DNA of 64,000 bases from positions 10,478,001-10,542,000 of the forward strand of contig CM120645.1 of the NCBI GenBank assembly GCA_051362555.1, in the 5' to 3' direction. How positions within the stretch are numbered: the first letter of the stretch is position 1; each line of letters begins with the position of its first letter. The notes beneath the pieces are model-generated. The model saw only the letters and a program-made list of their open reading frames with translations, searched no databases and was not told the DNA's origin. Source of the stretch: Lingula anatina (lineage: Eukaryota > Animalia > Brachiopoda). The translations under genes and the position numbers were made by a program. Shown piece after piece: positions 19,201 to 58,953 of the stretch.

Positions 19201-20675
19201 CTTCTCACCAAGAAACGTGAGAGATCTCAAAACTACATAAGAATCCATTGGCTCCATGGCTTCTATTCTGCATGTTTGGGTGGCCAGGTAATACCCTGTT
19301 ATGCTATGTTCGTGATTGCACTTTTATGACCCACAGTTGGCTTCTGTTGCTTAACTGTCAAGCAATGGAAATAACAGTAACTGACTGAATCAATCATGAA
19401 CGTTTCTGGGGCTTTGGGCAAAGTCGATTGTGGCGGCTATGATATTAGACAACAATGAGCAAATCTTTTCGCGCCGATTTTTTCGAAGTGCGCCCTTTGA
19501 TTTTAATAGCATGTCCACCAGCGATTAATCGGTTCTATATGGGAAACCCATGACGGATCTGAGTGTTTGACTGGTTCTTACTGATTATAGTGAAGGTCTC
19601 GTTGCGACTTTTAAAGTTGAGGCAGAGGTTTGTCTCTAAAGAAATGTTTCCAATCGGTTCTTCCATGTTGTCTTGGAATTAATTGTAGGTTCTTTGCGTG
19701 ATGCTAGTATTGATTGTGAACTTTAAAACAGGTTAACGTATTAACTACACAACGCATATGACAGTTTATTCATGAATGATGATGTTTTGCATTTAATAAA
19801 TTCACACAAACATATTAAATTACTTATTAGCTTTGGTTGATTGCTCATGCTTTTGTGACAATTACGTTGGGTTTGTTTTTGATATGTGTTGACCTTTTCG
19901 AATCCATGTCGTCTGATGACGTCAAGACAATGGGTCTTTCCAAATGTCATATGGTAATCTATTTGCTGTGATATGGTGAACGAAAGCGCATCAGATGCGG
20001 ATGTTGCAGCTGATGCTCGACCTGTTCCATTCACACTAATGATAATTTCATTAATTAAATATATAAAAGTTTCCGATCTATGACTCGCACTTCACCTTTC
20101 TTACGCATATCAATTTTTGTGCTATTTTGAGTTTTGCGTTTGCTCTATTTTACCCCCTGAACGTGGCTTCGCTTTGCATTCCCTGTCGTTTCGTTATAAA
20201 GGGCCTATTCCTATCAGTTTGACTTGGGATATCGATAGCTTCGAACAAATAACGAGATGATATGAATAAAACAAACCGGATAATGATATTTAATGTGATA
20301 CGCGCAATCTGTGAACATCTTAATGTAATGATTTCCATGAATACTCAGTGCTTTCATGACGTTAAAAAAGCTTCTAGCAGTCTAGGGTTGGCGGTATTTA
20401 TATTAAATGGATCAAAATATTTTACTCGTGCCACAAAAAATATGCAGTTCTTTTACTTTAACTATACACAGTGATAAATAATCGGAGACGACTTGCGCAG
20501 TTTTATATACGTTTTAGAGCCCTTCCTACAATTTCTCTGCCTTAACAAAGACTCGGTGTACTGACAGTTTACATTCGTTGGCCGTTTACAACTGACATAT
20601 TGTCCTTTTACGTTAAGTCACGTCTCAGGGTCCCGACCTTACGGCCGGCTAAATGTGCAATAAAAAGTGACTTAC

Positions 20676-20846
20676 TGTTTGAAGTCGCCTTTCCGTTTTT
20701 ACTGCGTACAGTACTCCTGCATTGCCAATGGCGGTAAAAAGGCAAAGGGTAAACAGGACCATGCCTAAGGTGACGCTCCTAAGCATTAAGCCAAAGTCCG
20801 GTGTCAAGTCCACGTAGCAGGTGACATTTGCTGAACAGTTAGCCAT
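20676..20846 (-). CDS. HRH1: Rhodopsin-family aminergic GPCR, histamine H1 receptor-like, first coding exon (N-terminus, TM1, ICL1)
   Basis: Translation: MANCSANVTCYVDLTPDFGLMLRSVTLGMVLFTLCLFTAIGNAGVLYAVKTERRLQT. It has two N-glycosylation sequons and the TM1 GN motif, and VLYAVKTERRLQT closely resembles HRH1 VLYAVRSERKLHT. It ends at a phase-0 donor ACA|GTAAGT (GT at 20675-20674). Orthology is not proven from one exon. Confidence 0.82.
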
Positions 20847-22048
20847 GGTGCTGTATGTGGCCGTGCGGAAGGGCAGTAGCCGAAAATTGAAAAGCGACGT
20901 TCCAATGTGATCGTGATCGGTGCCGCTTTTAAGGAATGCGCCGTCGGCGGAGCGTCGTTACTGTTTTCCGCTCCCCGTGCGAGTTGTGCGTTAGTGGATC
21001 CAAGAATTCAGGTTTCTCTGTCTTCATTTCAAAGGGGAATTAATATCAGTGCGACCGTGTTCAGTCGGTAACTACCCCATTTATCAGTCGTATGTCAACT
21101 ACACTGGCTTGCTACTAAGCTCTCAAAACAAATATATCACAGTTATCATAACAGCCCTCCTAGAACCTAATCTTACGTGTTAACCACTGTTTGGACTCCT
21201 TAACAAGCCTTATCAATAATTCCAAGTAGTCCAAATTAGCCAATCTAATGTTTAATTAGGCCTTCTCAACTCCCGAATGTCCACCGATTTCTTAGAAATC
21301 TGAACTGAACTCGTGGTGCACCAGCTGCAAGAGGAGAAATCGTTCGCATGCTTCTTCTCCGCTCTTCAGTGTTGATTTACAGCACGGAGCGCTTGCTGCG
21401 CGATGATGAGTAACTCGGGCTCCGAGTTGCGCAGGTGACGATGCTGGCGGTGTAATTATAGCAGTACTTCGAAAACACTGGTATACAATGTAATCACCTG
21501 GTCATACGTCCTGCTAATACATCTCAATTTACTTTCTTATTGCCGCACACACCATGTAACGGTTATTTACCAGTTCCAGCATCCATTGATCTTTATTACG
21601 AAAACTTAAATCCATGTATCACCAGCGAATTAAATATAAAGCTGAAAAAGATATACTGTTTGACTATTTGTGTACATGTTCTTGACATAAAAAACGTTGT
21701 TTTATTGTTTCATTGGCCCCTAACTGCCAAACTTTATTTTCCTTCACTTTAAGTTTCCTTGAAGTCCAAACCAATCAGAGAAGAATGGGCTACATGAACA
21801 TATCTGACCACGCGATTGGCATTTTTCTACAGATTTTTCAACACACCACATTCTGGGCATATCTCAGCGCTTTCCTTGTGCGAGTGGAATATACAGTACT
21901 TACAATTGGTTGTAGTAAATTACAAATTCCTTGAATGCGTATTTGTTGAAAGTGTATTTCTTGAATGCGTATTTTTTATTGCAATTCGAACAATCAGAGC
22001 GTTTTCACAAAGGTAACAGCACGCTCCCTGTGAATATCTATTTAATTA

Positions 22049-24287: not shown

Positions 24288-24910
24288 TTATTAGTATTCT
24301 TTAAATGACGCCAACGCAAAGGCGGTTTGTATACTTGATAACTTTACTGGTGTATTGTTACAATTGCCAATCTGTCAACTGTCAGATGCATCTGCAGAGT
24401 AGAACATAATTCCATTTATTTGAACATACATTGTAGTTTACATGTATTTGAAATATTATCATATGTGAAGAGTGGTTATTCGATACAACCCAGATTTAAA
24501 AAAAATTATGGTTAACATAAAAAGCATTCTCTTTGATGACAGCATGACATGTCGTCTTAAAAAAAAAAAAACGCGTCTCAATGCTTGATTATAACACCTA
24601 GACGCCAGTCAATACGTTTTCTGCGACATTTAACCTTAAAGACACGGACATGCGGAAAGTTAATTTGATTGTATTTCATCAAGGTATTTTCTCGTGAGGA
24701 TCGACTCGTCTTTAGATCCAAGCCACACTCCGGCGCAGACATCTAATAATCATGCGAACGCTTCAAGTTGCACAATCAGCGGCTTATCGGAAAGCAATTC
24801 GGGTTAAACTGAGAATGACCCGTTTTGACAATTATTCTGCCTACAGCAGGATCATGTTCTAACTATAAACGTGTGTAAGACAGTCGCATCGACCAAGAAG
24901 CAAATATAGC

Positions 24911-25341
24911 ACAGCCTCCGCACTAGGCCCTCCCGTATTACATCTATTGCAGACCTTGCACCAGGCCCGCACATATAACATCTGCTACAGACTCCACACT
25001 AGGCTCTTCCGTATAACATCTACTACAGCCTCCGAACTAGGCCCTCCTGTATAACATCCGACAGACTCTGCACTAGGCCCTCCCGTATAACATCCAGTAC
25101 AGAAACCACACTAGGTCCTCCCGTATAACATTTACTACAGACTCTGCACTAGGCCGTCCGGTATAACATCTACTACAGACACCACAATAGGCCCTTCCGT
25201 ATAACATCTACTACAGACTCCGCACTGGGCCCTCCCGTATAACATCTACTACAGAATCCACACTAGACCCTGCCAATTAACATCTACAACAGACTCCGCA
25301 CTGGGCCCGTATAACATCTACTTTAAGCCCTGAGCTAGGTC
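24911..25341. repeat. Minisatellite, ~38-bp unit (ACTACAGACTCCGCACTAGGCCCTCCCGTATAACATCT), ~11 copies
   Basis: The unit is directly visible, with scattered substitutions and indels between copies. Confidence 0.93.
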
Positions 25342-44521: not shown

Positions 44522-45481
44522 TTACAAAATGGCAGTTCTGTGGCGATGCTCACGGTATAGTCGAAGAATGAATTTCCCGGCTGCGGTGTTTCTCCTACGC
44601 TTCACCTCGTCATAGTATTGTGCGGGTATGGTGCCCTTTTCGAATGCCATGAACTTTTCATTCATCTCGGGTGGAAGAACGAGAGGGTACGATAAAGCGG
44701 CAAAAGCGATATCCGCCCCAGATATCTCCGGGGTATCACAAATGTTCTTCCTTCCGTCGGCCAACAAGCGTTCGACTTTGTCCCAGACCTCATTCACAAT
44801 TGTTTGGTTTTTGCGAAAGAAGTCCGCAGATTTTATGTTGACAAACCTAGTGAAGATGAATTCGACACTGGGCCATAAGAGACCTACGCAGGCGGCCTGC
44901 CATTTCGGTACTCCCTTCTGAAACACCTCTCGTAAACGATGCTTACCCAGGGAATCGCCGTAGAGATAACAGTAAACAATACAAAACGCAGCGTGGCCAT
45001 AGCCAAATGCTTCAGAAAAACGAGCATCCATTTCAACAGCCTCTTCACACGGGAAAATCCAGTCTTTTTCAAACTTTTTCAGATTTCTCTCTTTTAAAAA
45101 ACGCATGATGTCTGTCGATTGTGGAAGAACTGTATTCTGCGATGTTATCATAACGGGCGTACTGCTGTTCTTGCCCGTGTGCCACAAGGTAATATTATGA
45201 AATATGGGGATGTACCCCTTCTCTTCTACAGGTACTCCAGACAGCTGGCATGCCCAGTTCACTTTCTCACAGAAATGAGAGTACGGCAATGTAATCAGAA
45301 TGGGCTTGCTTCTGTCACCTGCGTACATGGTGTTGAAACACTTCGAAAGAAGTCGCCCAGCGGTGGGAAAAGCTCTGTAGAACGCATTCACAGCAATTGC
45401 GGCGACCCTCCATCCAATGCTCGCAACTAACACAACGGGGATCAGCGCAACCCCGCACACCCGTGAGACCGAGTTGGCCAT
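44522..45481 (-). CDS. Glutathione S-transferase family protein (GST N-terminal thioredoxin-like plus C-terminal helical domain) with a hydrophobic N-terminal extension; single coding exon
   Basis: Intact 319-aa ORF. Motifs: ILITLPYSHFCEKVNWA (GST-N active-site region), STPVM...LPQSTDIMRFL (cis-Pro and xS motif), ISGADIAFAAL (N-capping box), AGKFILRLYREHR. A splice acceptor TTCTTTTCAG lies just upstream of the ATG. Confidence 0.88.
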   Translation of the reverse strand: MANSVSRVCGVALIPVVLVASIGWRVAAIAVNAFYRAFPTAGRLLSKCFNTMYAGDRSKPILITLPYSHFCEKVNWACQLSGVPVEEKGYIPIFHNITLWHTGKNSSTPVMITSQNTVLPQSTDIMRFLKERNLKKFEKDWIFPCEEAVEMDARFSEAFGYGHAAFCIVYCYLYGDSLGKHRLREVFQKGVPKWQAACVGLLWPSVEFIFTRFVNIKSADFFRKNQTIVNEVWDKVERLLADGRKNICDTPEISGADIAFAALSYPLVLPPEMNEKFMAFEKGTIPAQYYDEVKRRRNTAAGKFILRLYREHRHRTAIL

Positions 45482-46507
45482 TAAGATAGCTGAAAAGAAA
45501 CGGACATAAATGGCATCATTTTGATAATGTTGACCCCGGCCCTATTTATTTTCAAGATAAAGCGTTTGAAATTATTTATTATGCGGATTACAAGTAATAC
45601 ATTACGCTGTTATCTTAAAACACGAACGATGTACATGTACAACGTTTGACTCCGTTTGATATTTAAGCAACCAATACAACCAAATTCAAAAACGGGGCTT
45701 TCCGAACGCTCGAATGAATAAATAAGACCTTGCATAAAAAAAATAAAAAAAAATAATCAAAAAAGTAAAAAAATAAATAATAAAAAATAATAATAATCAA
45801 AACAATTTTCTACACGAACATAAGCCTACTGTATATATTATTGCCGTAGTTTCTTCGTGGTTTACTTATTAACAAGAGTTGGTTAGATAAGAAGTCGGAG
45901 GCAGTTGAAGTGTCCTTTTTTCGACCTATCCTCCCCCTAACGCCACGCCACCATAGTGTAAATAAATTATAATATACACACACTCTTTGTGGTTGAACCC
46001 AAAGCAAATGAAACAGCAAACCGATTATAAAAGACAATTTAAGTAGTAAAAAGCGGATTGTTAGTTCGGCAATCTCATAAAAAAAGAGTTGTCTTTCCTT
46101 TTTTTGTTGGTGAGTGTCACTGAATTATAAAAAAACGCCCATAATAATAAGAAAAAAACAGTGATTTTATTTTTCAGTCATCCCCTAAATTGTTGTTTAT
46201 TTTTAATACACTCTTGCCCAAAATGGTTGGTACACGGAAAGTTTGGGATGCATATCACCCTGTTTCTTTCATTATTATTGATATTATCAAATTAATACTG
46301 CTTATATTGTTAAATATGTGAAGCTGGAGGATTGGTAAAGTCAAGGAGACACAAACAAAGCAAATGTGAAAAAAAGAGTTAATTTATTTAGGTTTTTTTT
46401 TTCTCATGCCCCCCAAAAGAGTGCTTTTTTACATAACAGTACCAAGTGAAAAATTAAACATAAATTTATACTGTGATTGACAATTAATATGAAATTAGGG
46501 GAAATCG

Positions 46508-47014
46508 TCAAGAAACATCTTCAGAGTTCATTATTAATCTAAATAGCGGGTATGCCCACCCCGAGCTTGGATAATGGCCTCCAGACGGCGTGGCGTACTG
46601 TGAACTAGAGTTACAGCGCTTTGGAGAGGGATTCTGGTCCATCCATCTTGAAATGTCATCTCGCAGTTCATTTAGATTTGTAGGGGGAGGGTTTCTCCTC
46701 TGAATAGCACAACCAAGTTCGTCCCAAATGTGCTCAATTGGGTTTGTATCTGGGCTTCTTGCTGGCTGTGGCATCAGCTGAATGTTGTTTTGTCGGATAT
46801 AGACTGCAATTAAGCAGGCTGTGTGGGGAGTTGGGTTGTCATGTTGCAATCTAAAATTGTCTCTGTATATCCCTCTTCCGAACGGCTCCAGGTTCTGCTG
46901 GAGAATGTCTCTGTATCTGGCAGCGTTAAGGTTTTCGTCCAGAGGAAGCAATGGGCAAATACCGTTGCTGGAAATGGCACCCCAAACATGTACAGAACCA
47001 CCTCCTCCAGCTAT
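46508..47014 (-). pseudogene. Tc1 transposase C-terminal DDE fragment (left arm; frameshifted)
   Basis: GGGSVHVWGAI...LQHDNPTPH...PARSPDTNPIEHIWDEL, with 34 residues between D and E (DD34E). Confidence 0.9.
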
Positions 47015-47549
47015 GAGAGTGCGTAGGCACCCTGGGGAGAGGCTATTAACTGAAAATATTCAGGAAACAATAGCTGGAGGAGGTGGTTCTGTACATGTTT
47101 GGGGTGCCATTTGCAGCAACGGTATTTGCCCATTGCCTCCTTTGGATGAAAACCTTAACGCTGCCAGATACAGAGACATTCTCCAGTAGAACCTGGAGCC
47201 GTTCGGAAGAGGGATATACAGAGACAATTTTAGATTGCAACATGACAACCCAACTCCCCACAAAGCCCGCTTAATTGCAGACTATATGCGACAAAACAAC
47301 ATTCAGCTGATGCCACAGCCAGCAAGAAGCCGAGATGCAAACCCAATTGAGCACATGTGGGACGAACTTGGTCGTGCTATTCAGAGGAGAAACCCTTCCC
47401 CTGCAAATCTAGATGAACTGCGAGATGCCCTTGAAGATGAATGGACCAGAATTCCTTTCCAAAAAGGTGTAACTCTAGTTCACATTATGTCACGCCGTCT
47501 GGCGGCCATTATCCAAGCTCGGGGTGGGCATACCCGCTATTTAGATTAA
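47013..47549 (+). pseudogene. Tc1 transposase C-terminal DDE fragment (right arm; premature stop at 47187-47189)
   Basis: RVRRHPGERL...QETIAGGGGSVHVWGAI...QHDNPTPHKA...NPIEHMWDELGR...RRLAAIIQARGGHTRY. Confidence 0.92.
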
Positions 47550-48527
47550 TAATGAACTCTGAAGATGTTTCTTGTCAATTTCCCCTAATTTCATATTAAT
47601 TGTAAATCACAGTATAAATTTATGTTTAATTTTTCACTTGGTACTGTTATGTAAAAAAAGTACTCTTTTGGGGGCATAAGAAAAAAAACCTAAATAAATT
47701 AACACTTTTTTCACATGTGCATTGTTTGTTTCTCCTTGACTTTACCAATCCTCCAGCTTCACATATTTAACAATATAAACAGTATTGATTTGATAATATC
47801 AATAAAAATGAAAGAAAAAGGGCGATGTGCATCCCAAACTTTCCGTGTACCAACCATTTTGGGCAAGAGTGTATATCCAAGTGTCTTGTCTGTCTAGAGC
47901 ATCTCCGTCAGGAATATTGAACATAGAAAACTAAGAAATACCCATGGTAAGTCAATGACAATTAATTTATCTAGACTTGTTGTAAAGAGTCACTGGCGGT
48001 GCAAACGTAATTATAGCTTCCCGAGAGTTCCAAACGATCTCGTAGTATTTCACCCTCAAATGAAACGGAGTTCTTGTTCTCCAGAAAGAAGCTGGCTGAA
48101 GGCTCTATAGATAGTCACTGTTAAATGCTTGTAAGACTTACAACTTACAACTGTAAAAAGGGTTTATGAATAATAATTTAGTTAACATGCTGATTAAGAG
48201 AATTGTCGTCACATTTTGGGGGAATTTAGTTTTTGCTACATTTGCTACAGTGTGTTGAACGCCTATTAAATGGAGAGCCACCTCGCGAGATTATATATAT
48301 TTACCATAAGTAATGGACTAAAAATGAATAATTACTGTACCCTTCACGCTGAATGACGTCCATGCATGAAATGCGTCTGACCGCGTATGTGCATATACTG
48401 TACTGTAGTGCATTGATCTAATCTAGCCTTCGATGATATTTGAGTGTATATGGCAGCTTCTCTCAAGAAATATTTTTTAGAAAAAAAAAACAATTTCTTG
48501 AAAATTCAAACTCTTACTCATTCATGT

Positions 48528-48773
48528 CAGGGTGTCAGGGGGATCCTGACCCCCCTTTCGATTTCAGACAAAAATCACACCAATGGTCCACTCTTGAAAT
48601 TAAAATTTTGACAAGCTGAAAGATAGTTCAAAACCAAATGGCACCGTTCGCCCTCTAAAATACCAAAAAAATTTGGACCCTTTACTGGGCTCCGAACCCC
48701 ACGCCAAGGGTGGAGGGAGGGTCGGCTTCGCATCTGCAGACCACCCCTTGAAATAATCCTGGATCCGCCCCTG
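48528..48773 (-). mobile_element. hAT-like MITE, family B copy 1
   Basis: The reverse complement begins CAGGGGCGGATCCAGGATTATTTCAAGGGG; homologous to the 49269 and 62933 copies. Confidence 0.8.
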
Positions 48774-49268
48774 CATTTGATTTTGTATCAAACGAATCTC
48801 TCCCCTTGGCCATTGAAGACGTTAGATAATGTACTAGTATACACTGTGCATCTTACCTACCAGCGTTGTCTCAACACGTAAGAATCTACACAACATAGCA
48901 CTTGATCCAGACAAATCTTAATTTATCATACCGGTACCTCGAAATATGCAACTGAATTTGCTCAATCTTCATTAGTTCTAAAGCTGAACATGTACGTGGT
49001 TACCTACCTTTGAAAGTCTTATTAGACTCACGCAATCCCTTACAGGTAAGAGGGAGTATTACATCAATATGTACACTGAATTATCGGTCTCCTAACCCAA
49101 ATTGATATAGTGGTACTATTAATTCAACATAGACATTTACACAAAGCTAAAAAGTGTATCAAAGAGGCGTGTAACAGGGATCATAGTCTTATTAGGCCTA
49201 CTCTTCACAGGCGCATATTCTGATCCCGCTGACATTCTCTTGTATTAGTTATATAGGATCTCGGACTA

Positions 49269-49518
49269 CATGGGGGCGGATCCAGGATTATTTGAAGGGG
49301 GGTCCGCGGATGTGAAGCCTACTCTCACCTCCCAGACCCCTGTCGTGGGGTTCGGGGCCTACAGAAGGGCTCCGCAAAATTGTTGATATTTTAGAGTGAG
49401 AACGGTTTAGGACTATGATTCAGCTAGTCAAAATTCTAATTTTAAGAGGGGATCATTGGTGTGATTTTTTTTTCAGAAGTCGACCCGCCGTGGCCCCCCT
49501 CGCAAAAACCCTCCACTG
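49269..49518 (+). mobile_element. hAT-like MITE, family B copy 2
   Basis: GGGGCGGATCCAGGATTATTTGAAGGGGG...ACTATGATTCAGCTAG..AAAATTCTAAT...CCACTG. Confidence 0.8.
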
Positions 49519-51213
49519 GCCCTTCACCTTATTTCCCCACCACTGTCTAATACCACTGGTCAAAAATCTGACCCCCACGGGTCACTGAGGCACTGGCCCA
49601 TATATTACAGTATTGAGTAAAAGACATTTATTAAACCATGCTGCACTGCTAAATTACAACTTATTTTAATCCGTAAAGCACTGTTCATAGAAAATCGCAG
49701 GGGAAGTCTAAACGCATTATAACAAAAAGTTTTTTTTTTGTTTTGTTTACATTACTGCGACGTAGTAACCCCAATATTTGATGAATAACTTCCCTTTAAA
49801 AGGCGAGCTTTTTTACAGTCGCTGCAAGCACACACCTCAACAAAAAACGGCGTGCCCTTTGACACCCTTTCTCGAAGCTGTGTATCTAGTAGAAGTACGT
49901 GCATTTCTCGTTTACCTGAAAAGGTAAGCCATGAACCTACCAGTGCCTACTAGACTGATTTATTTTGAGGGGTACAATGGCTGAAAATGTTTGCCGTGTA
50001 AGACAAGACAAAATAACACTATATGATTATTCTTCATCACAGCCCTTCCAGCGGATTAAAGCATCTCATATATAAATATATATCCAGAAACGTTAAAGCT
50101 GAGTCAGTTTAATGGGTTTTTCGGTGAAATGCGACTCCTTTCTCTAAGCAGACGGACAATGTCACACAAGGCACCATTGCTGTCATGCCAAAATGACATG
50201 ACCCCACTCCGAACTGAAACATTCAGTTAAGGTAGGCATATTTAATTAAATTGTTAATTTAAGTCATACTCAAAAGACCACGTACGTTTTAACTCCCAGA
50301 CAGAACTGCTGTAGTTGCGCACTACCTTGCACATTCAGATTGCAATTGTTGTGCTCTTTTTAAATGATGACTTTAAAAAAGACTTAAAGAGATAACAACT
50401 TTGGTAAAAAAAACTATTTTCCTTGGGTAAACGACGATTTTCTCATACTTACCAAAGGTTAATGAATGCATTCCAGTATTCAAAGTTAGTACATGTTCTT
50501 CCTATAAGTTTGGGTTTTTTTAACATGTAAAATTTCCTAAGAGATTATTACGTAGGTACAGCCATCTGTGAAGGCATTTGTGGTCTGATGGCAAGCACAG
50601 ATTCCAGAAGAATCACGTTAATCGTTGTTTAGGTGGTAAAATGGAATTCATTATATTTCTTGGGTTGTTTACAATGTATTTATTGTGAAATATGAATGTC
50701 AGCTGTTTTCTCTTTAAGCGGAAGTACTTTTATAGAAAGAAATGGTGAACAGCGGTGATAAAATAAACATTTTGTCAGCCTAATGACCAATTAGCACGAA
50801 ATTTCTTGCATTAGCCCTCCTGTTACCAATCTCTGATATTTACCATACACTAACGAACAGCACATATCAAGAAACGTCCCAAGTATGAAAAGGCGCGCTA
50901 AGAGACTGATGTGCTCCTTTTTTTTACATCGAATTCCTTACAAAGACTTGGCGGCTGTAGGATAAAATGATTAATAATTGACTGTTTTTTTTTGGTAAAT
51001 AACTTCAGCATCACCGCGATAAACCAGGTCAATACTACAGTACATACCGGTCTTCATGTGACTATAAGTACTACTGGGTCTGTTTGCTGTGCCATATTTG
51101 TTATTCTTTTTTATTGTCATTTCTAGGTCACGCCGAGGAGACGCTCAGTAACATAGACGCATACCTTTGACACAGTAAAGTAGATCTGGCAAATTAAAGA
51201 GAGAGAGAGAGAT

Positions 51214-51344
51214 ATGGAAACAAGTCCAGAACATCTGTCGCTGATAATTGCCCCTCCAGTGGCGGGAGGGGTCGTACTGGCTGTCGTGGTTGTCGTTATT
51301 GTTTTTTGCAGGCGGCGGTGTAGAAAGCAGGATATAGACAGGAG
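51214..51344 (+). CDS. Tyrosine-rich single-pass transmembrane adaptor-like protein, coding exon 1 (short N-terminus, TM, CRRRC)
   Basis: Translation: METSPEHLSLIIAPPVAGGVVLAVVVVVIVFCRRRCRKQDIDR. Acceptor TTTCTAG ends at 51126, an in-frame TAG sits upstream at 51181, and the donor is AG|GTAAGA (phase 2). Confidence 0.8.
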
Positions 51345-52169
51345 GTAAGATTGGGGGTTTATTTGGGCTACTTCCTTATTTCATGAATCATATACAGAGT
51401 TATGTAGAACATGTATATCAAAAGCGGATGTAGGGGTATTGCACTTCTATATATATTTCGTGAATCATATACATTCTTTACATATCAGAGTTATGTAGTA
51501 TAGGAAAGGCGGATGGGGGGGAGGGGGGTGCACAATGGACTACCCGATCCCTAGCTTCTGTAGCTGTTATCTTCCTTCTACCTCCTACCAAATTCTGTAA
51601 ACGGTAAAACAAGCGAGACAAGGCTGAAACCAAGGGGTTTTTCTCCTGGTGTCGCACAGAGCAGCTTTGTGTGTGTACTGGTATATTTATGAAGTTCGAT
51701 CCGAACCATGTGCCCTTAAAAACCAGTTTAAAACCTTTAAGTACATTGATATATTAATTACGCATGGCTACCCACGTTGTCACGAGATAATTGGTATTGT
51801 ATTTTTGTCCATGATAAACGAAAGTCAAACGTTGAACCGAAACGCGCGTTTATAGTGACATACTTGAATGAGTAAAATTTGAGGAATTTGCATCGTGCAC
51901 TAAGGTCGAGCAAAAACAATCAAAATCTTTAATAAGAGAAGGTATTACGCTAATGATTAATCCATTTATGCATTTAATTTAGCCAAAACAAAGAAAAGGG
52001 GTTATCAGGGTCAGAGGTCTATCGCGTGACGCAATAGAAAATTTATAATATGTGTCAAAATGGTAAAATTAATCTTGAAATAAAGTGGTGTTAAATGTGG
52101 CAATTAGAAACGTTACTAAAATTTTCCTAGCACACGTCAGTTTTAAGGTATTGATGCTGTTTGTTTCAG

Positions 52170-52218
52170 TGTGAAAAAACAAGGCAACGAAATCACAGGT
52201 GGTGTGAGATATGAGAAG
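52170..52218 (+). CDS. Transmembrane adaptor-like protein, coding exon 2
   Basis: TTGTTTCAG|T GTG AAA...GAG AAG|GTAAAA encodes SVKKQGNEITGGVRYEK. Phases 2 to 0 join exons 1 and 3 in frame. Confidence 0.75.
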
Positions 52219-52484
52219 GTAAAATTCTTTCCGTTGTTACATGTAAGAACGTAGCTTGATAAATTATTATTTAATTGTTATCAGTTACTTTATCTTCTAC
52301 ATTTGCCACATACACGCGTATACTAGTAGGATGAAACCCGTTGAAACCATCTCACTTGAACTTTGGCTTGATATGTTTGCCTGCTTAACAAATGAAATTT
52401 TTTTCAAGGAATGCACTCATAAATATGTTTACTAATTAATGCACACATTATCAAGACGTTTAAGTGAAAACTCTCTGACTTCAG

Positions 52485-52967
52485 AAAACGGGCATCGAAA
52501 ACGTGGCAATGGATTACAATTCAACAGCTCAATTAACGGCAAGCGAGAGAAATGACGGAAGGAAGAATGAAATTCTTAAAGGCAAGGCTTCGCAAAACCA
52601 TACTCCATCTACCGGTGAGTACCTCCACTTCGCTGACAGCGGTTCATCCCTGAAGCAGCATATGTATGGCAATGTCAGTGTGACGTCCTCATCGGGCGTC
52701 ATAGACACATATCAGGTGGGACCTGCACTGACGCCACACGATTCCAATTATTCTCAATTCATGACGTCATCATGCCACAGTTATGTGAACACAAAACAGC
52801 AGGGGGAAGGCACAAACAGTGAGACGCGTGGTTCAAGCGAGAGTGCAGATTATACGTATGCCTGGCCTACTTTTTCTATTAAGAAGGGTAAAGATGTGCC
52901 TTTAACGAACTATGGGACCTATGAAGATGTTGGAACCAGTGGGTCAAATCTTTCTCGCAAGAAGTGA
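52485..52967 (+). CDS. Transmembrane adaptor-like protein, coding exon 3 (disordered Tyr-motif tail)
   Basis: CTGACTTCAG|AAA ACG GGC ATC GAA AAC GTG is in frame with ORF 52503-52967. Motifs EYLHF, YGNV, YSQF, YVNT, YTYA, YEDV. Total CDS 663 nt = 220 aa. Confidence 0.8.
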   Translation, partial: KTGIENVAMDYNSTAQLTASERNDGRKNEILKGKASQNHTPSTGEYLHFADSGSSLKQHMYGNVSVTSSSGVIDTYQVGPALTPHDSNYSQFMTSSCHSYVNTKQQGEGTNSETRGSSESADYTYAWPTFSIKKGKDVPLTNYGTYEDVGTSGSNLSRKK

Positions 52968-54439
52968 TAGCTTGTTGCTTATGCAAAGTGATCTCAGGTC
53001 ATTCAACGTGTTGTTATTTTCAGATATCACCTTTTTTATTTACATTAAATTAATGTGCTTTATTATAGTGCGTAATGCCTTGATATATAAAACACAAACA
53101 GCCCATGTGACTTATCATTCTGATTACGATAATTAAAATGAATGTGGTTGTGTCTTATATCTTACTTTGCGTGCAATTCAACTAATAACTGTTAGACTGA
53201 CCCCCCTCCTCCCCCAAAAAATTATAATAAATAAATTATTAGAAAGAAAAAGAAAGAAAATACGCAGTTCATTATTTAAAAAAATGTCGCTGCATTGCTT
53301 CATCCAGGATTCACGTCATCATCTGACGGAAACAAATGAGAACTGTGATCCCAAGCAAAAGTTGTCCATAGCTTCGTGTAACATATGGGTTATTATTTTT
53401 TTTACTCTTTTTGAGCATAAAGGTATAAAAATACAGTAACATTTTCACAGAATGTTGTTCAGTGCATCCACAAAAGGGACAATTTGCATATTCCATGTAT
53501 CCCTTTGAAGGATTATTTTTCTCGTTACCGTCGCTTTAACATGAAAAAGTCCATATCAACTGCTTCGTGTAATTCAATCTGGATCTATCAAAAACATTCA
53601 GTGATTTGGATTCTCTATGTCGTAGCTTTTTTCACTCCTGCTTGATGTGTCCAAATGTAATGATGTATACAAGTTGCATAAACTAAATATACTGCTTGAG
53701 TCCTATGAAATTAAATATGATTAGGGTATAATTACATGTAGATCAGTGCTGGTTCGTTTTTCTATGATCCAGTCAAATACTTACGGCGAAAAAAAACCTT
53801 TCTAGTGTCAGATTAGAGAAACGATGTTATGCGCATGTTGCAAATGGGGTGCACTTTTTGCTTGAGTAAATTTTATATCATAACTGAATGTATAAAATCA
53901 TTACAGGGCATTTAGAAAACTGATGTCCCAACCGTTGAATCATTTGTAAAACGGTTTACTGAATATAAGCATAATATAGAAAATATCCAGACAAAGAAAA
54001 TGAGATTTGAACTATAATATCTTGCTGTTCTAGACCACTTATATTACAGCCAATATTTTATCATTTTTGTTGAATATTTTGTATCTAGACATAAGTTATA
54101 TATTTATACAGTATTTGTAAACACATATAGTATTCTCAAACAGCGCAAATTGTTTTTGAATACCGGTACCCGTTGTTTTAAGGGCATTCTCAATGAAATA
54201 AACTCAATTATATCGTCATCGTTTGTGAAATTGTTTTATTTCAGCGCAAAGTTTCTCTTTTATTTTTTGCTGATACGGGTATTTTACGTCTGTCGTGTAT
54301 ACATTTGTACATGTACCAGTTCATGTATACGTTTGTGCCAGATGCAATACTGTGAGGCAAAATCATTTTGGATAATACATGTATGCTCAGTTAAGAAATT
54401 CTTTTCGTTTTTTTTTTTTTTTTTTGTTTTTTTTTTTTT

Positions 54440-55470: not shown

Positions 55471-55823
55471 TTAGGGTAACGATTTGCTAGTAAAGTCCCC
55501 AGGGTCGCTCCTCAGAGTCCCAGGGGTGGTCTGAATAGACGGAAAATCTCCTTGCCCGAAGTTCTCTCCTGGCGCTGAGATCCTGTCACAATAGGACGGC
55601 GGCGGTACTCCAGTTGGACGCGGCAAACTGTCAACGGCGTCTACTTTAAGAGACGATGGCCTTACCGCAGTGAAAGAGCAGAGACGCTCTATGTCTCTAG
55701 AGTATGGCGGTGGAGGCTGGTCGCTGTTGTGTTCCTCGCTGTATAGAAGTCTGGTTCTGGAGTTGTGGACGGATGAGCTGATGATGCAGATACTGTCGTA
55801 AGGCGGTGGATCTGTGTACACTC
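55471..55823 (-). CDS. CUB-like/TM/PPxY membrane protein, coding exon 5 (cytoplasmic tail with three PY motifs)
   Basis: Acceptor CCGTAG|GA. Translation GVYTDPPPYDS...QPPPPYSR...VPPPSYCD...KSLP*. Confidence 0.82.
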
Positions 55824-56206
55824 CTACGGTATATCGGCCAATATAGAAATAAAAGCAGAGTAAAATATCAAAGACAATTGCGTGCGGTACATTACTTTAT
55901 ATATGCATGTACGCTCACATGTACCCTGGTATGTGGATTATAAGAAGCATTTAGATTTATAGATTAAATGCAAATGTATATTAAGAAATAAATTAGAAAT
56001 ATGAATTGAACAATGAATAAATCGTAAACTGATTTATTAAATTTTTTTTTTCATCAGGTATTGACTTGTAAATGCAAGAGTAGCAATATTAAAGATATGA
56101 ATACATATTTGATAAAAAGGAAATACAATAGAACTGTTTATGAAAACAGAGTTATATGAATTCATCAATGCATATTCAAACCATGTTGTATACGAAAGTA
56201 TCTCAC

Positions 56207-56365
56207 CGGCAGGTCCCCCCTGTATTTGAGCGCCCTCTACCGCCGCTCTAGCCCTGGCTCTAGCCCGGCGACGCTTGATATAGCATCCCGCGACCACTAT
56301 CGCTACCTCAATGACGATGACGCTGCTCACGATGATGGCAGACGACTGGCCGAATGTAAGTCCAG
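56207..56365 (-). CDS. CUB-like/TM/PPxY membrane protein, coding exon 4 (transmembrane)
   Basis: TTTTCTCCTCCCAG|...|GTGAGA, phase 1-1. Translation AGLTFGQSSAIIVSSVIVIEVAIVVAGCYIKRRRARARARAAVEGAQIQGGPA. Confidence 0.85.
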
Positions 56366-56933
56366 CTGGGAGGAGAAAACAAGATACACCGGTTAATGAT
56401 TGATTGGATTATTTATAAGATATATTACAACTGTGAAAACAAATTTCACGAAATGTTTTGGTTGATTTGCTTTCTTTTGCGCCAGTAATTGAGTACGTTA
56501 TGAGTGAGCACTCCAGTAATGCGTACATGTTAAGCCCAACAATATATTTAGAAAAAGAAAAGTAAGAAGACGGGGGAATGTGACGAGAAAAAAGTCACCT
56601 TCGTGTTAATCAAATTAGTCACGCAAGGGAAAACTTTTATTACTTTGTACTACATCACAAGATATTAAATGAAAGCTTATGTTTATTAGTGACGTAAACG
56701 TCGGGATTTTACCTTTAGGGAGATGGTAGACAATTCGTTATAATCTGTTGCACTTTGACATGCAATAACCTTCTGTCTCGAACTTTAATAAGATTAAAAG
56801 TCCACAGCATGCTAAATATTCATGAAGATTGACTGTTTACGTCACAGTGCATCGCATATTGTAGATGAATAACTTTTTCAACATTTGATCATTAATATGG
56901 CACTGACAGTATATACATGTAGCTGCTACCTAA

Positions 56934-57148
56934 GGCTCTATTCCCATAGATTTTAGATCGATCTATCCCCGCGGGGAGTCTCACTAGATTACTTTCAGAT
57001 AATCCGACTTAAATGTCCGTCCCGGCTACTACAAGCTGTTAGGAGGTAATTAACTTTCGTGTCCGCCCGGCTGACAGCTATTTAGCGTGAACCCCCAGGG
57101 AGTTAGGTCGATCTAAAGTAGGTCGATCTAATCTATGGAAATGGGGTG
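56934..57148. mobile_element. Intronic Harbinger-like MITE, TAA TSD
   Basis: TAA|GGCTCTATTCCCATAGATTTTAGATCGATCTA ... TAGGTCGATCTAATCTATGGAAATGGGGTG|TAA. Confidence 0.7.
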
Positions 57149-57349
57149 TAAGATGTTGGTGAACGAGGAGAAGCTACTAGGGCCCAAAATGCGTGAAATT
57201 AATATTATACATTTGTACCATCAGTAAATAATTTTTATTTTTGATAACGAACTTTTCTTAGACCTTATTGTTATTTTTTACTGTACCTCAAATGATGAAG
57301 CCCCGATATCAAAAGGTAAAACTTAGATGCTAAAACGCTGCTGACCTAC

Positions 57350-57476
57350 CTTTTTCTGATATGACAGTGAATTTGAAGTCGTAGTCGATGCTCTGTCCCC
57401 TATGGAGCCTGATTTGCATGGAGTTATGACCAGATAGGATGTCGCTGAGGGCCAGGGTATTGCAGTGTATTGCCCT
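57350..57476 (-). CDS. CUB-like/TM/PPxY membrane protein, coding exon 3 (C-terminal part of the CUB-like domain)
   Basis: CTAATTACAG|...|GTAGGT, phase 0-1. Translation RAIHCNTLALSDILSGHNSMQIRLHRGQSIDYDFKFTVISEK. Not in the ORF track. Confidence 0.8.
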
Positions 57477-58141
57477 CTGTAATTAGAGGAAAAATTATGA
57501 CGACTGCTTCAAATGCGGATAAAAGCTAAAACTAAACTTGTGTAGGATTTTAACTCATGGCGACCGTTTTGGATAAAAAAAGTGGGCTTCAGGACAAAAA
57601 GGCAGGCTTTACCCATGTAAACTACATGTTTTCCTTAGACATAAACGCGTGGCGCCAAGATACGTCATATTTGAAGGAAGAGGCAACATTCCACCTATTG
57701 TCTGTCACAGAATCCATCAGCTGAATATTTTCTAATATTCTCATAATTTGATAGCCAGATAAATGACTAAATAAATAAAAGTGATTTTCCTCCGTTTAAG
57801 ATTTAGTATTAACTCTAAACATGTTACCCAATAAAACTCACGTGAGTTTTGACAAAGCAAAATAGCGCACGTTTGCGTAGCATTCTTCTGCGTGCATATG
57901 ACAAATTTGTTGTTATGGTTGTTGTTGTTGTTGTTGTTCTTCAACCTTTCTAAATATCACCAACTTCCACGTGGTCGGTAATATCATAACACGGTGAATC
58001 ACCTTCAAGTACTGATAACGTTCTGTTATCATTGAGCATATTTACATGTACCGGTCCAATAGGATGCATCGTGATTAAACAACATATAATATAAACCTGG
58101 TATATATTGATAATATTTCACTACACACAGCAGTTTTGACA

Positions 58142-58203
<62 letters not shown>
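58142..58203. repeat. (AAT)n microsatellite
   Basis: Direct reading. Confidence 0.95.
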
Positions 58204-58204
<1 letters not shown>

Positions 58205-58351
58205 GACGACGACAACAATTATGATGATATGGTGATGATTAACATAACATATCACTGACGTTCATTTTTCTAGTAAATATAAAATTTTCACAGTTCGTTT
58301 AATTACATCACTTATGATACAATATAGGGATGACTGATATTTCTTACTTAC

Positions 58352-58611
58352 CAACAATTTCCCCTTCCCGTCACCGTCATAAAAATTAAGCTGAGTCCTG
58401 GAACTAGTAGAACACGGCATGTATATGGCACTAAAGCTGGCCCTGAGTATCATGGACGGATCTGACGCCGTAAACGTCAGCGTGCACGTGCTGGGGATGT
58501 CCGGCGCGTACCTAATCGTGCGTATCCATGCTGTTACTACCGCCATGGTATCGTTGTGGATTTTGAACGTCTGTCTGCATTGGTTGAATGTCCCGTCCAT
58601 ATAATAGAATC
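58352..58611 (-). CDS. CUB-like/TM/PPxY membrane protein, coding exon 2 (CUB-like domain)
   Basis: TTCCCTTCAG|...|GTAAGT, phase 1-0. Translation YYMDGTFNQC...RYAPDIPSTCTLTFTA...LRASFSAIYMPC...TQLNFYDG, matching the CUB-like Y..C.L.F, F..C, L..YDG pattern. Confidence 0.85.
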
Positions 58612-58953
58612 CTGAAGGGAAATGTGGGGTGTATTGAAAGTTTATCATATCATATCACATAACGTGATTTTTAGATGTTGCTCTTAAAAGCAGCTCGTAT
58701 GCTGTGCACAAATATTTACGTTACTTACACGTGTTAGAGGTAAAATTCTCTGATGCCTATTTCAGAGCAAAATGGGAGATAATTACCAGCAAAATATCAA
58801 GCCCTTTATGCACACGCACGCACGCACGCACAAACGCATACGAAATATACAAAACAAGAAATAAACATTTTTTTGTATCATCAGTTATAATAATTCCATA
58901 TACATTTTCTCTTTTTGTCTAAATAATGCACATGCAATCCAGAGTCTACTCAC

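What the first reader, a model, noticed from the sequence alone, without database searches (positions are those of the whole stretch)
51214..52967. LAT/PAG-like transmembrane adaptor architecture in an invertebrate-type genome
Seen: three exons (51214-51344, 52170-52218, 52485-52967) splice in frame to 220 aa. The protein has about 9 extracellular residues, no signal peptide, one TM, a juxtamembrane C-RRR-C, and a domain-less Ser/Thr/Gly-rich tail with 11 tyrosines, including YGNV, YVNT, YEDV, YLHF and YSQF. All three frames of the 5' part of exon 1 contain stops, so a larger ectodomain is unlikely. Known: vertebrate TRAPs (LAT, NTAL/LAT2, PAG1, LIME1) are defined by this layout, with palmitoylated juxtamembrane Cys and Grb2-type YxN SH2 docking sites. 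Inference: this may be an unrecognised invertebrate phosphotyrosine scaffold, possibly immune-related, that homology search would miss.
Basis: partly seen in the sequence, partly recalled or inferred. Interest (0 to 1): 0.8.

Follow-up and report, generated by a model that had tools for sequence, protein, structure and literature searches.

The report
Lingula orphan LAT-shaped membrane protein
This is a real, spliced lamp-shell (Lingula) gene with no relative found in any other animal, for a small membrane protein with a tyrosine-rich tail predicted to be floppy and to face the cell interior; it may dock signalling proteins as vertebrate immune-cell adaptors do, but that role is untested and the tail changes fast.

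Summary
The gene is real. Both introns are seen in RNA reads (4 of 7 runs laid). The protein is the RefSeq 'uncharacterized' Lingula anatina LOC106179303, with the same start Met.

The architecture holds: 7-10 outer residues, one hydrophobic helix, C-RRR-C, and a tail predicted to be disordered with 11 Tyr. No homologue was found among 1.84 billion representatives, and no Pfam family of vertebrate transmembrane adaptors (TRAPs) matched. Any LAT likeness is therefore convergent.

Motif support is thin. YxN is not enriched (P=0.15); YxN[VILT] is (P=0.009, one of 14 patterns). In reads about 10% diverged, exon 1 is conserved (4 synonymous, 1 non-synonymous), but the tail looks near-neutral (9 and 26). 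No Tyr is lost in the 40 of 82 rows shown, which chance allows (P about 0.25), and YEDV becomes YEYV.

The 5' end is not fully resolved, but a large ectodomain is unlikely. Nothing ties the gene to immunity.

Verdict: a likely TRAP-like phosphotyrosine scaffold (about 0.5), an orphan, of modest interest.

The parts
51127..51213 (+). Probable 5' UTR part of exon 1: strong AG at 51125-26, two in-frame TAG stops, GA microsatellite, no ATG; true 5' end unresolved
   Evidence: about 4x read depth at 51110-51185 and about 2x at 51034-51109 in X7 only, no joint listed there
51214..51344 (+). Coding exon 1: start Met (G at -3 and +4), 7-10 residue outer stub, transmembrane helix (residues about 8-31), C32-RRR-C36 basic juxtamembrane segment
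   Evidence: the RefSeq protein starts at the same Met; 4 synonymous vs 1 non-synonymous differences in divergent reads
51307..51321 (+). Juxtamembrane Cys32 and Cys36, candidate palmitoylation sites (untested)
   Evidence: codons untouched in the 40 rows shown; the C36 codon also appears in an X7 loose-end consensus
51345..52169 (+). Intron 1 (825 nt, GT..AG)
   Evidence: read joints in 4 of 4 runs
52170..52218 (+). Coding exon 2 (49 nt; Tyr58)
52219..52484 (+). Intron 2 (266 nt, GT..AG)
   Evidence: read joints in 4 of 4 runs
52485..52967 (+). Coding exon 3: Ser/Gly/Thr-rich tail predicted to be disordered, with 10 Tyr, and the stop codon
   Evidence: Atlas model pLDDT 0.43
52665..52676 (+). 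YGNV, Grb2-type YxN motif (conservation not judgeable: next to the 18-nt indel, low depth)
52782..52793 (+). YVNT, Grb2-type YxN motif; only a synonymous change listed in divergent reads
52920..52931 (+). YEDV motif; reads YEYV in the divergent runs X7-X9
52968..54100 (+). Probable 3' UTR (depth in X7 in every bin to about 54100)
   Evidence: table 2

Best explanation
A spliced, expressed Lingula gene with no detectable relative elsewhere encodes a small single-pass membrane protein, predicted to sit with its tail inside the cell, that likely works as a phosphotyrosine docking scaffold in the manner of LAT/NTAL/GAPT and likely arose independently of them. Shown: exon structure, transcription, one hydrophobic helix, two juxtamembrane Cys, 11 tail Tyr, no homologue found. 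Inferred, step by step: the helix inserts without a signal peptide, N-out and C-in (flank charge -2 vs +5); Cys32/36 are palmitoylated; a Src- or Syk-type kinase activated by some other receptor phosphorylates tail Tyr; YVNT and YGNV then bind a Grb2-type SH2 domain and other Tyr bind further SH2 proteins, clustering a signalling complex at the membrane. The upstream receptor, cell type and pathway are unknown; immunity is only one option.
For: Spliced RNA in 4 of 7 runs laid. The RefSeq model (two accessions, one protein) starts at the same Met. Single TM; tail FoldIndex -0.07; flank charges -2/+5. Exon 1 is under constraint: 4 synonymous vs 1 non-synonymous, P=0.02 against neutral, or 0.047 if a further change read from a loose end is added. 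Tyr make up 5.8% of the tail; both YxN sites have V/T at +3 (P=0.009 vs shuffles, post hoc among 14 patterns). No Tyr is lost in the 40 rows shown, and two Tyr codons differ synonymously. Language-model look-alikes are known pTyr scaffolds: poxvirus A36 0.89, SCIMP 0.87, LIME1 0.83, GAPT 0.82; all are under 0.9, so leads only. The layout matches the TRAP definition in PMC4861716 (passages).
Against: Tail pN/pS is about 0.87 (9 synonymous, 26 non-synonymous; not different from neutral, P=0.42). Keeping 10-11 Tyr has chance P=0.23-0.26. Residues next to Tyr change: YEDV to YEYV, both neighbours of Y71, and +1/+2 of Y203. Plain YxN (2 observed, 0.7 expected, P=0.15) and Yxx[VILMF] (P=0.08) are not enriched; there is no ITAM, ITIM, ITSM or PxxP. 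With the TM removed the TRAP look-alikes vanish and the best hit is an unnamed mostly molluscan cluster at 0.85. No orthologue was found to test deeper conservation. 42 of 82 difference rows were not shown.
Confidence: 0.5

Rival explanations
1. A fast-evolving small membrane protein whose function lies in the helix and juxtamembrane segment (an accessory subunit or chaperone for another membrane protein). The tail is weakly constrained, and its Tyr serve at most as Yxx-hydrophobic sorting signals (YLHF, YSQF, YGNV, YEDV fit the recalled AP-2 consensus), not as SH2 sites.
For: Constraint is detectable only in exon 1. Exon 1 vs tail: Fisher P=0.03, or 0.16 with loose-end changes added. The tail tolerates a 6-residue indel and changes beside its Tyr. 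No signal in 2 of the 7 runs.
Against: The Tyr fraction is raised (P=0.03 against a 3% background, 0.07 against 3.5%), and both YxN sites have a Grb2-like +3 residue. No Tyr loss is listed. Known TRAP tails also share little sequence (LAT vs NTAL, PMC4861716 passage).
Confidence: 0.27
2. The TM-plus-tail end of an ordinary type I receptor: either an upstream exon with a signal peptide or ectodomain splices in at a weak AG just before the ATG and has been missed, or the gene is a remnant that lost its ectodomain.
For: AGs at 51183-51211 leave the frame open. The tool skipped 51190-51222 and dropped 7 loose-end rows there; X8 has depth 21 at 51235 but none before 51186. The best Pfam look-alikes are TM segments of type I receptors (EphA2_TM, TMEM154, TM_ErbB1, all below cut-off). 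The tail alone resembles an unnamed molluscan cluster (0.85).
Against: RefSeq starts at the same Met. No joint to 47900-51190 is listed, and depth there is confined to dispersed repeats and the X7 reads just upstream of exon 1. X7 reads run unspliced upstream of the repeat, and 0 of the 18 X6 reads run on for 20 or more unlike letters. No ectodomain family was found in 75 plus-strand stop-free segments of 52 aa or more at 20084-51167. No longer homologue among 2586 candidates (weak evidence). A GST-like gene lies head to head 5.7 kb upstream.
Confidence: 0.2
3. A true, highly diverged homologue of vertebrate LAT/NTAL/PAG1/LIME1.
For: Same layout; feature-level look-alikes SCIMP, LIME1 and GAPT at 0.82-0.87.
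Against: No sequence hit. No TRAP Pfam family among the 7 listed at E up to 10. The tail is neither acidic (11.6% D/E) nor Pro-rich (2.6%). No LAT-like molecule was found even in amphioxus (PMC5431462 passage).
Confidence: 0.03

Closest known systems
RefSeq XP_013418315.1 / XP_013418316.1, uncharacterized protein LOC106179303, Lingula anatina
   Same: The same gene: same start Met; exon 3 is 95% identical.
   Different: The window allele lacks 6 residues (RefSeq 128-133) and differs at 2 further positions in exon 3. No function is annotated.
Vertebrate transmembrane adaptor proteins (LAT, NTAL/LAT2, PAG1, LIME1, SCIMP, GAPT, LAX)
   Same: Few extracellular residues, one TM, juxtamembrane Cys pair, long domain-less tail with several Tyr including YxN sites (definition from PMC4861716 passages).
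   Different: No sequence or Pfam similarity. Cys spacing is CxxxC (CxxC is the recalled LAT/NTAL/PAG form). The tail is Ser/Gly/Thr-rich and neutral. There are only 2 YxN sites against five putative Grb2 sites in NTAL. Motif conservation, shown for LAT from fish to human (PMC10079008 passages), is not shown here.
Poxvirus A36 (OPG164)
   Same: Best language-model look-alike (0.89, 228 aa). An integral membrane protein whose pTyr sites recruit Nck and Grb2 (PMC9333988 abstract and passages).
   Different: No sequence homology was found. Here the only Nck-like candidate (YEDV, which is not the YDxV form cited in PMC3507883) lies C-terminal to the YxN sites, the order reported as sub-optimal, and it is not conserved.

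Membership tests
TRAP (architectural class) | Extracellular part of only a few residues | tested here: met
   7-10 residues before the helix; in-frame stops upstream; RefSeq start at the same Met. Residual doubt about weak acceptors at 51183-51211, which the read tool could not test.
TRAP (architectural class) | Single transmembrane helix, tail cytoplasmic | tested here: met
   One Kyte-Doolittle peak of 2.75; flank charge -2/+5. Topology is predicted; no dedicated TM predictor was available.
TRAP (architectural class) | Long domain-less tail with several tyrosine motifs | tested here: met
   11 Tyr in 189 aa; no Pfam family above cut-off; FoldIndex -0.07; pLDDT 0.43.
TRAP (architectural class) | Juxtamembrane palmitoylation motif (most members) | tested here: inconclusive
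   C32 and C36 are present and unchanged in the 40 rows shown. Palmitoylation itself cannot be tested with these tools.
TRAP (architectural class) | Tyrosine motifs selectively conserved | tested here: inconclusive
   No Tyr lost in 40 of 82 rows, chance P=0.23-0.26; YVNT kept, YEDV changed, YGNV not judgeable. No distant orthologue.
TRAP (architectural class) | Inducible Tyr phosphorylation and SH2-protein binding | not testable with these tools
   Needs biochemistry.
TRAP (architectural class) | Expression in immune cells | not testable with these tools
   Run labels give no tissue. Reads on the coding exons in 5 of 7 runs, none in X1 and X4.
LAT / NTAL / PAG1 / LIME1 / SCIMP / GAPT gene families (homology) | Detectable sequence or profile similarity | tested here: not met
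   phmmer over 1.84 billion proteins found only itself; no such Pfam family listed at E up to 10; PDB sequences 0 hits.
ITAM/ITIM adaptors (DAP12, FcR-gamma type) | ITAM or ITIM motif; charged residue in the helix | tested here: not met
   0 ITAM, 0 ITIM, 0 ITSM (patterns recalled). No D/E/K/R in residues 8-31.

The most novel reading that the evidence does not exclude
A brachiopod independently evolved a LAT/NTAL-type palmitoylated transmembrane adaptor that couples receptor-proximal tyrosine kinases to Grb2 and other SH2 proteins. Its scaffold sequence drifts or is driven by positive selection while the docking tyrosines are kept. That would make TRAPs a recurrent, homology-invisible design in invertebrates and would supply the kind of 'unknown membrane-bound molecule' proposed where LAT is missing.
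Probability: 0.3. Interest if true: 0.65.

Novelty: new variant of a known kind. Interest (0 to 1): 0.32.

Why it matters
TRAPs are described from vertebrate leukocytes, and LAT-like molecules were not found in amphioxus although its SLP-76, GADS and Itk exist (PMC5431462 passages). A working invertebrate example would show that the design arises by convergence and hides among 'uncharacterized' orphans. That would make a proteome-wide architecture screen worthwhile. The value of this single case is limited: it has no orthologue to anchor it, motif conservation is not shown, Lingula is hard to work with, and two unchecked earlier scan notes report better-conserved proteins of this layout in sea urchins and arthropods.

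Tried and rejected
Whole genome: none held, so no paralogue or synteny search and no proteome-wide base rate for this architecture.

No indexed RNA holder was listed; this is not evidence either way. Raw-read runs were laid instead, 7 of the 9 listed.

Homology searches: exon 3 against 88-280 aa proteins and the full protein against 124-396 aa and 397-2000 aa found only the RefSeq record or nothing. phmmer found only itself; PDB sequences gave 0. Atlas structure hits all had TM under 0.4 on a pLDDT 0.43 model and were disregarded. No fold or complex prediction was run: the tail is predicted disordered and phosphotyrosine cannot be modelled.

Upstream ectodomain exons: 75 of 87 plus-strand stop-free segments were scanned. 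The 12 left out overlap the GST-like gene or the transposon. One sub-cut-off SET1_RBD hit was taken as chance. Exons under 52 codons were not tested.

Artefact or pseudogene: rejected, given canonical joints in reads and no stop or frameshift among the differences shown.

Literature: searches (0 papers) listed no paper on this gene or on an invertebrate TRAP. I saw listings and abstract starts only, the gene's accession was not searched, and subscription journals are not covered. No supplements were read.

Earlier-scan look-ups by sequence and by place were empty.

Full report
OBSERVATION. There are 11 tyrosines, C32-RRR-C36 and the five motifs named. One hydrophobic segment stands out: the Kyte-Doolittle 19-mer peak is 2.75 at residues 11-29 and at most 0.13 from residue 37 on. 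Net charge is -2 before the helix and +5 after it, which predicts N-out/C-in (the positive-inside rule is recalled). The tail is rich in Ser, Gly and Thr, with FoldIndex -0.07, and the Atlas model has mean pLDDT 0.43.

IDENTITY. Exon 3 finds 1 protein among 33 candidates: Lingula anatina LOC106179303, 226 aa, 95% identical. It is held as XP_013418315.1 and XP_013418316.1, with one cluster member. It starts at the same Met and has 6 extra residues plus 2 substitutions relative to window exon 3. The window is therefore brachiopod DNA, and the gene is an existing but unnamed model.

EXPRESSION. Nine raw RNA runs were listed and seven were laid. Both joints appear in X7, X8, X9 and X6 (14/14, 12/10, 4/5 and 4/4 reads). 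X5 has about 2 reads on the coding exons; X1 and X4 have none (about 6 in 100 of those runs was read). In X6 all first mates lie on the minus strand, which in most stranded libraries means plus-strand RNA. X7 depth continues to about 54100, a probable 3' UTR. Tissue is not given, so nothing here links the gene to immune cells.

THE 5' END. In-frame TAGs lie at 51124-26, 51154-56 and 51181-83. Of the 17 AGs examined at 51040-51211, the 9 ending at or before 51180 run into a stop, including the strong one at 51126 (12 of 15 pyrimidines). The 8 from 51183 on do not, but have at most 6 of 15 pyrimidines. No read joint to 47900-51190 is listed, and depth there is limited to dispersed repeats and a few X7 reads just upstream of exon 1. 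X7 has about 4x depth at 51110-51185 and about 2x at 51034-51109, with no joint. X8, X9 and X6 have none upstream of 51186. The tool skips the GA repeat 51190-51222 and dropped 7 loose-end rows there. A splice into that repeat is therefore not excluded. No ectodomain family was found in 75 of the 87 plus-strand stop-free segments of 52 aa or more at 20084-51167. A GST-like gene lies head to head 5.7 kb upstream. I put about 0.15 on a missed coding extension.

RELATIVES. None were found. The word searches returned itself only among 443 candidates and 0 of 2586 longer candidates (weak). phmmer over 1.84 billion representatives returned 1 hit, itself, and PDB sequences gave 0. Pfam lists 7 sub-cut-off families, mostly generic TM segments (EphA2_TM, TMEM154, TM_ErbB1), none of LAT, PAG, LIME1, SCIMP or GAPT. 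The Atlas feature search gives poxvirus A36 0.89 and 0.88, SCIMP 0.87, an unnamed cluster 0.87, Opalin 0.87, neurexin/syndecan 0.85, LIME1 0.83, Stannin 0.83, GAPT 0.82 and glycophorin C 0.81. All are below 0.9, and several are not adaptors. With the tail alone, the best hit is an unnamed, mostly molluscan cluster at 0.85. Much of the TRAP likeness thus comes from the stub-helix-basic segment.

MOTIFS AGAINST CHANCE (20,000 shuffles of the 189-aa RefSeq tail; 14 patterns, recalled). YxN: 2 observed, 0.70 expected, P=0.15. YxN[VILT]: 2 vs 0.16, P=0.009. Yxx[VILMF]: 4 vs 1.8, P=0.08. Yxx[VILMFP]: 5 vs 2.1, P=0.03. Y[ED][ED]: P=0.13. ITAM, ITIM, ITSM, NPxY, YxxM, YxxQ and PxxP are absent. Eleven Tyr in 189 residues has P=0.03 against an assumed 3% background and 0.07 against 3.5%. 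This is a mild signal; the best P is about 0.12 after correcting for 14 patterns.

CONSERVATION TEST. Runs X7-X9 differ from the window at 77, 66 and 64 places, and X6 at 4 (table 1). That is roughly 10% over the covered bases by my estimate. It fits the cryptic-species complex discussed in PMC8146825 (passages) and gives one natural comparison. Only 40 of 82 rows were shown. On those: exon 1 has 4 synonymous and 1 non-synonymous differences (pN/pS 0.09), exon 2 has 1 and 2, and exon 3 has 8 and 24 (0.91). Exon 1 departs from neutrality (P=0.02, or 0.047 with one more change read from a loose end). The tail does not (P=0.42), nor does the whole coding sequence (P=0.14). No Tyr and neither juxtamembrane Cys is lost, and the Y160 and Y206 codons differ synonymously. 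At the tail's rate, however, keeping 10-11 Tyr has P=0.23-0.26. YVNT, YSQF, YLHF, YQVG and YTYAWP show no listed amino-acid change. YEDV becomes YEYV, both neighbours of Y71 change, and C157 is lost. YGNV lies beside the indel, where depth is low, and cannot be judged.

MECHANISM. Best reading (0.5): a signal-peptide-less type III membrane protein, likely palmitoylated at C32/C36, whose disordered tail is phosphorylated by a non-receptor tyrosine kinase and docks Grb2-type SH2 domains at YVNT and YGNV. This is the TRAP principle as defined in PMC4861716 (passages). The gene structure, expression and anatomy are shown; every biochemical step is inferred. Rivals are a membrane accessory protein with a weakly constrained tail and sorting-type Tyr (0.27), the TM-tail end or remnant of a type I receptor (0.2), and a true LAT/PAG homologue (0.03).

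RELATION TO KNOWN SYSTEMS. It meets the architectural part of the TRAP definition and fails homology to any TRAP family. The functional part is untested. It differs from LAT, whose Cys and Tyr motifs are kept from zebrafish to human (PMC10079008 passages), in that such conservation is not shown here. It differs from A36 (PMC9333988 abstract and passages; PMC3507883 passages) in that its only Nck-like site is imperfect, lies after the YxN sites and is not conserved. PMC5431462 (passages) found no LAT-like molecule in amphioxus and proposed an unknown membrane-bound substitute. Searches listed no paper describing this gene or an invertebrate TRAP (listings and abstract starts only). Two earlier scan notes describe unrelated proteins of like layout in sea urchins and arthropods (unchecked), which suggests the layout is recurrent rather than unique.

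VERDICT. Observation confirmed; interpretation partly supported. A real orphan gene with TRAP-like anatomy, function plausible but with weak statistical and evolutionary support. New variant of a known kind; interest 0.32.

Noticed in passing
window 46206-47874: Tc1/mariner-like element that is almost wholly palindromic: nested inverted arms of 197, 228 and 363 nt at 89-95%, with an inverted duplication of the DDE_3 transposase 3' part (E=1e-5). A foldback-type derivative.
   Followed up: partly
window 44522-45541 (-): Uninterrupted 339-aa stop-to-stop ORF with a GST N-terminal domain (GST_N_3 E=6e-8), head to head with the finding.
   Followed up: partly
window 55471-58654 (-): Multi-exon gene, tail to tail with the finding: a CUB-like exon (label from inspection; Pfam gave no hit), a TM exon at 56037-56408 and a tail with several PPxY-type motifs at 55471-55896. 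A possible Nedd4-family adaptor or receptor.
   Followed up: no
window 20649-20957 (-): Exon that looks like TM1 of a rhodopsin-class GPCR (label recalled; no Pfam hit).
   Followed up: no
window about 52684: In-frame 18-nt indel: the window lacks 6 residues present in the RefSeq protein and in X7/X8 reads.
   Followed up: yes
window 51223-53000, runs X7-X9: Runs filed under the same species label differ from the window at about 10% of exon positions, whereas X6 differs at 4 places. This is consistent with cryptic Lingula species.
   Followed up: partly
window 48542-48969, 49184-49611, 50254-50895: Dispersed repeats that attract reads from all four runs, with many loose ends and opposite-strand joints. 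The first two share an inverted pair (I9).
   Followed up: no
window 24870-25322: Tandem array with a 38-nt period (family D1).
   Followed up: no
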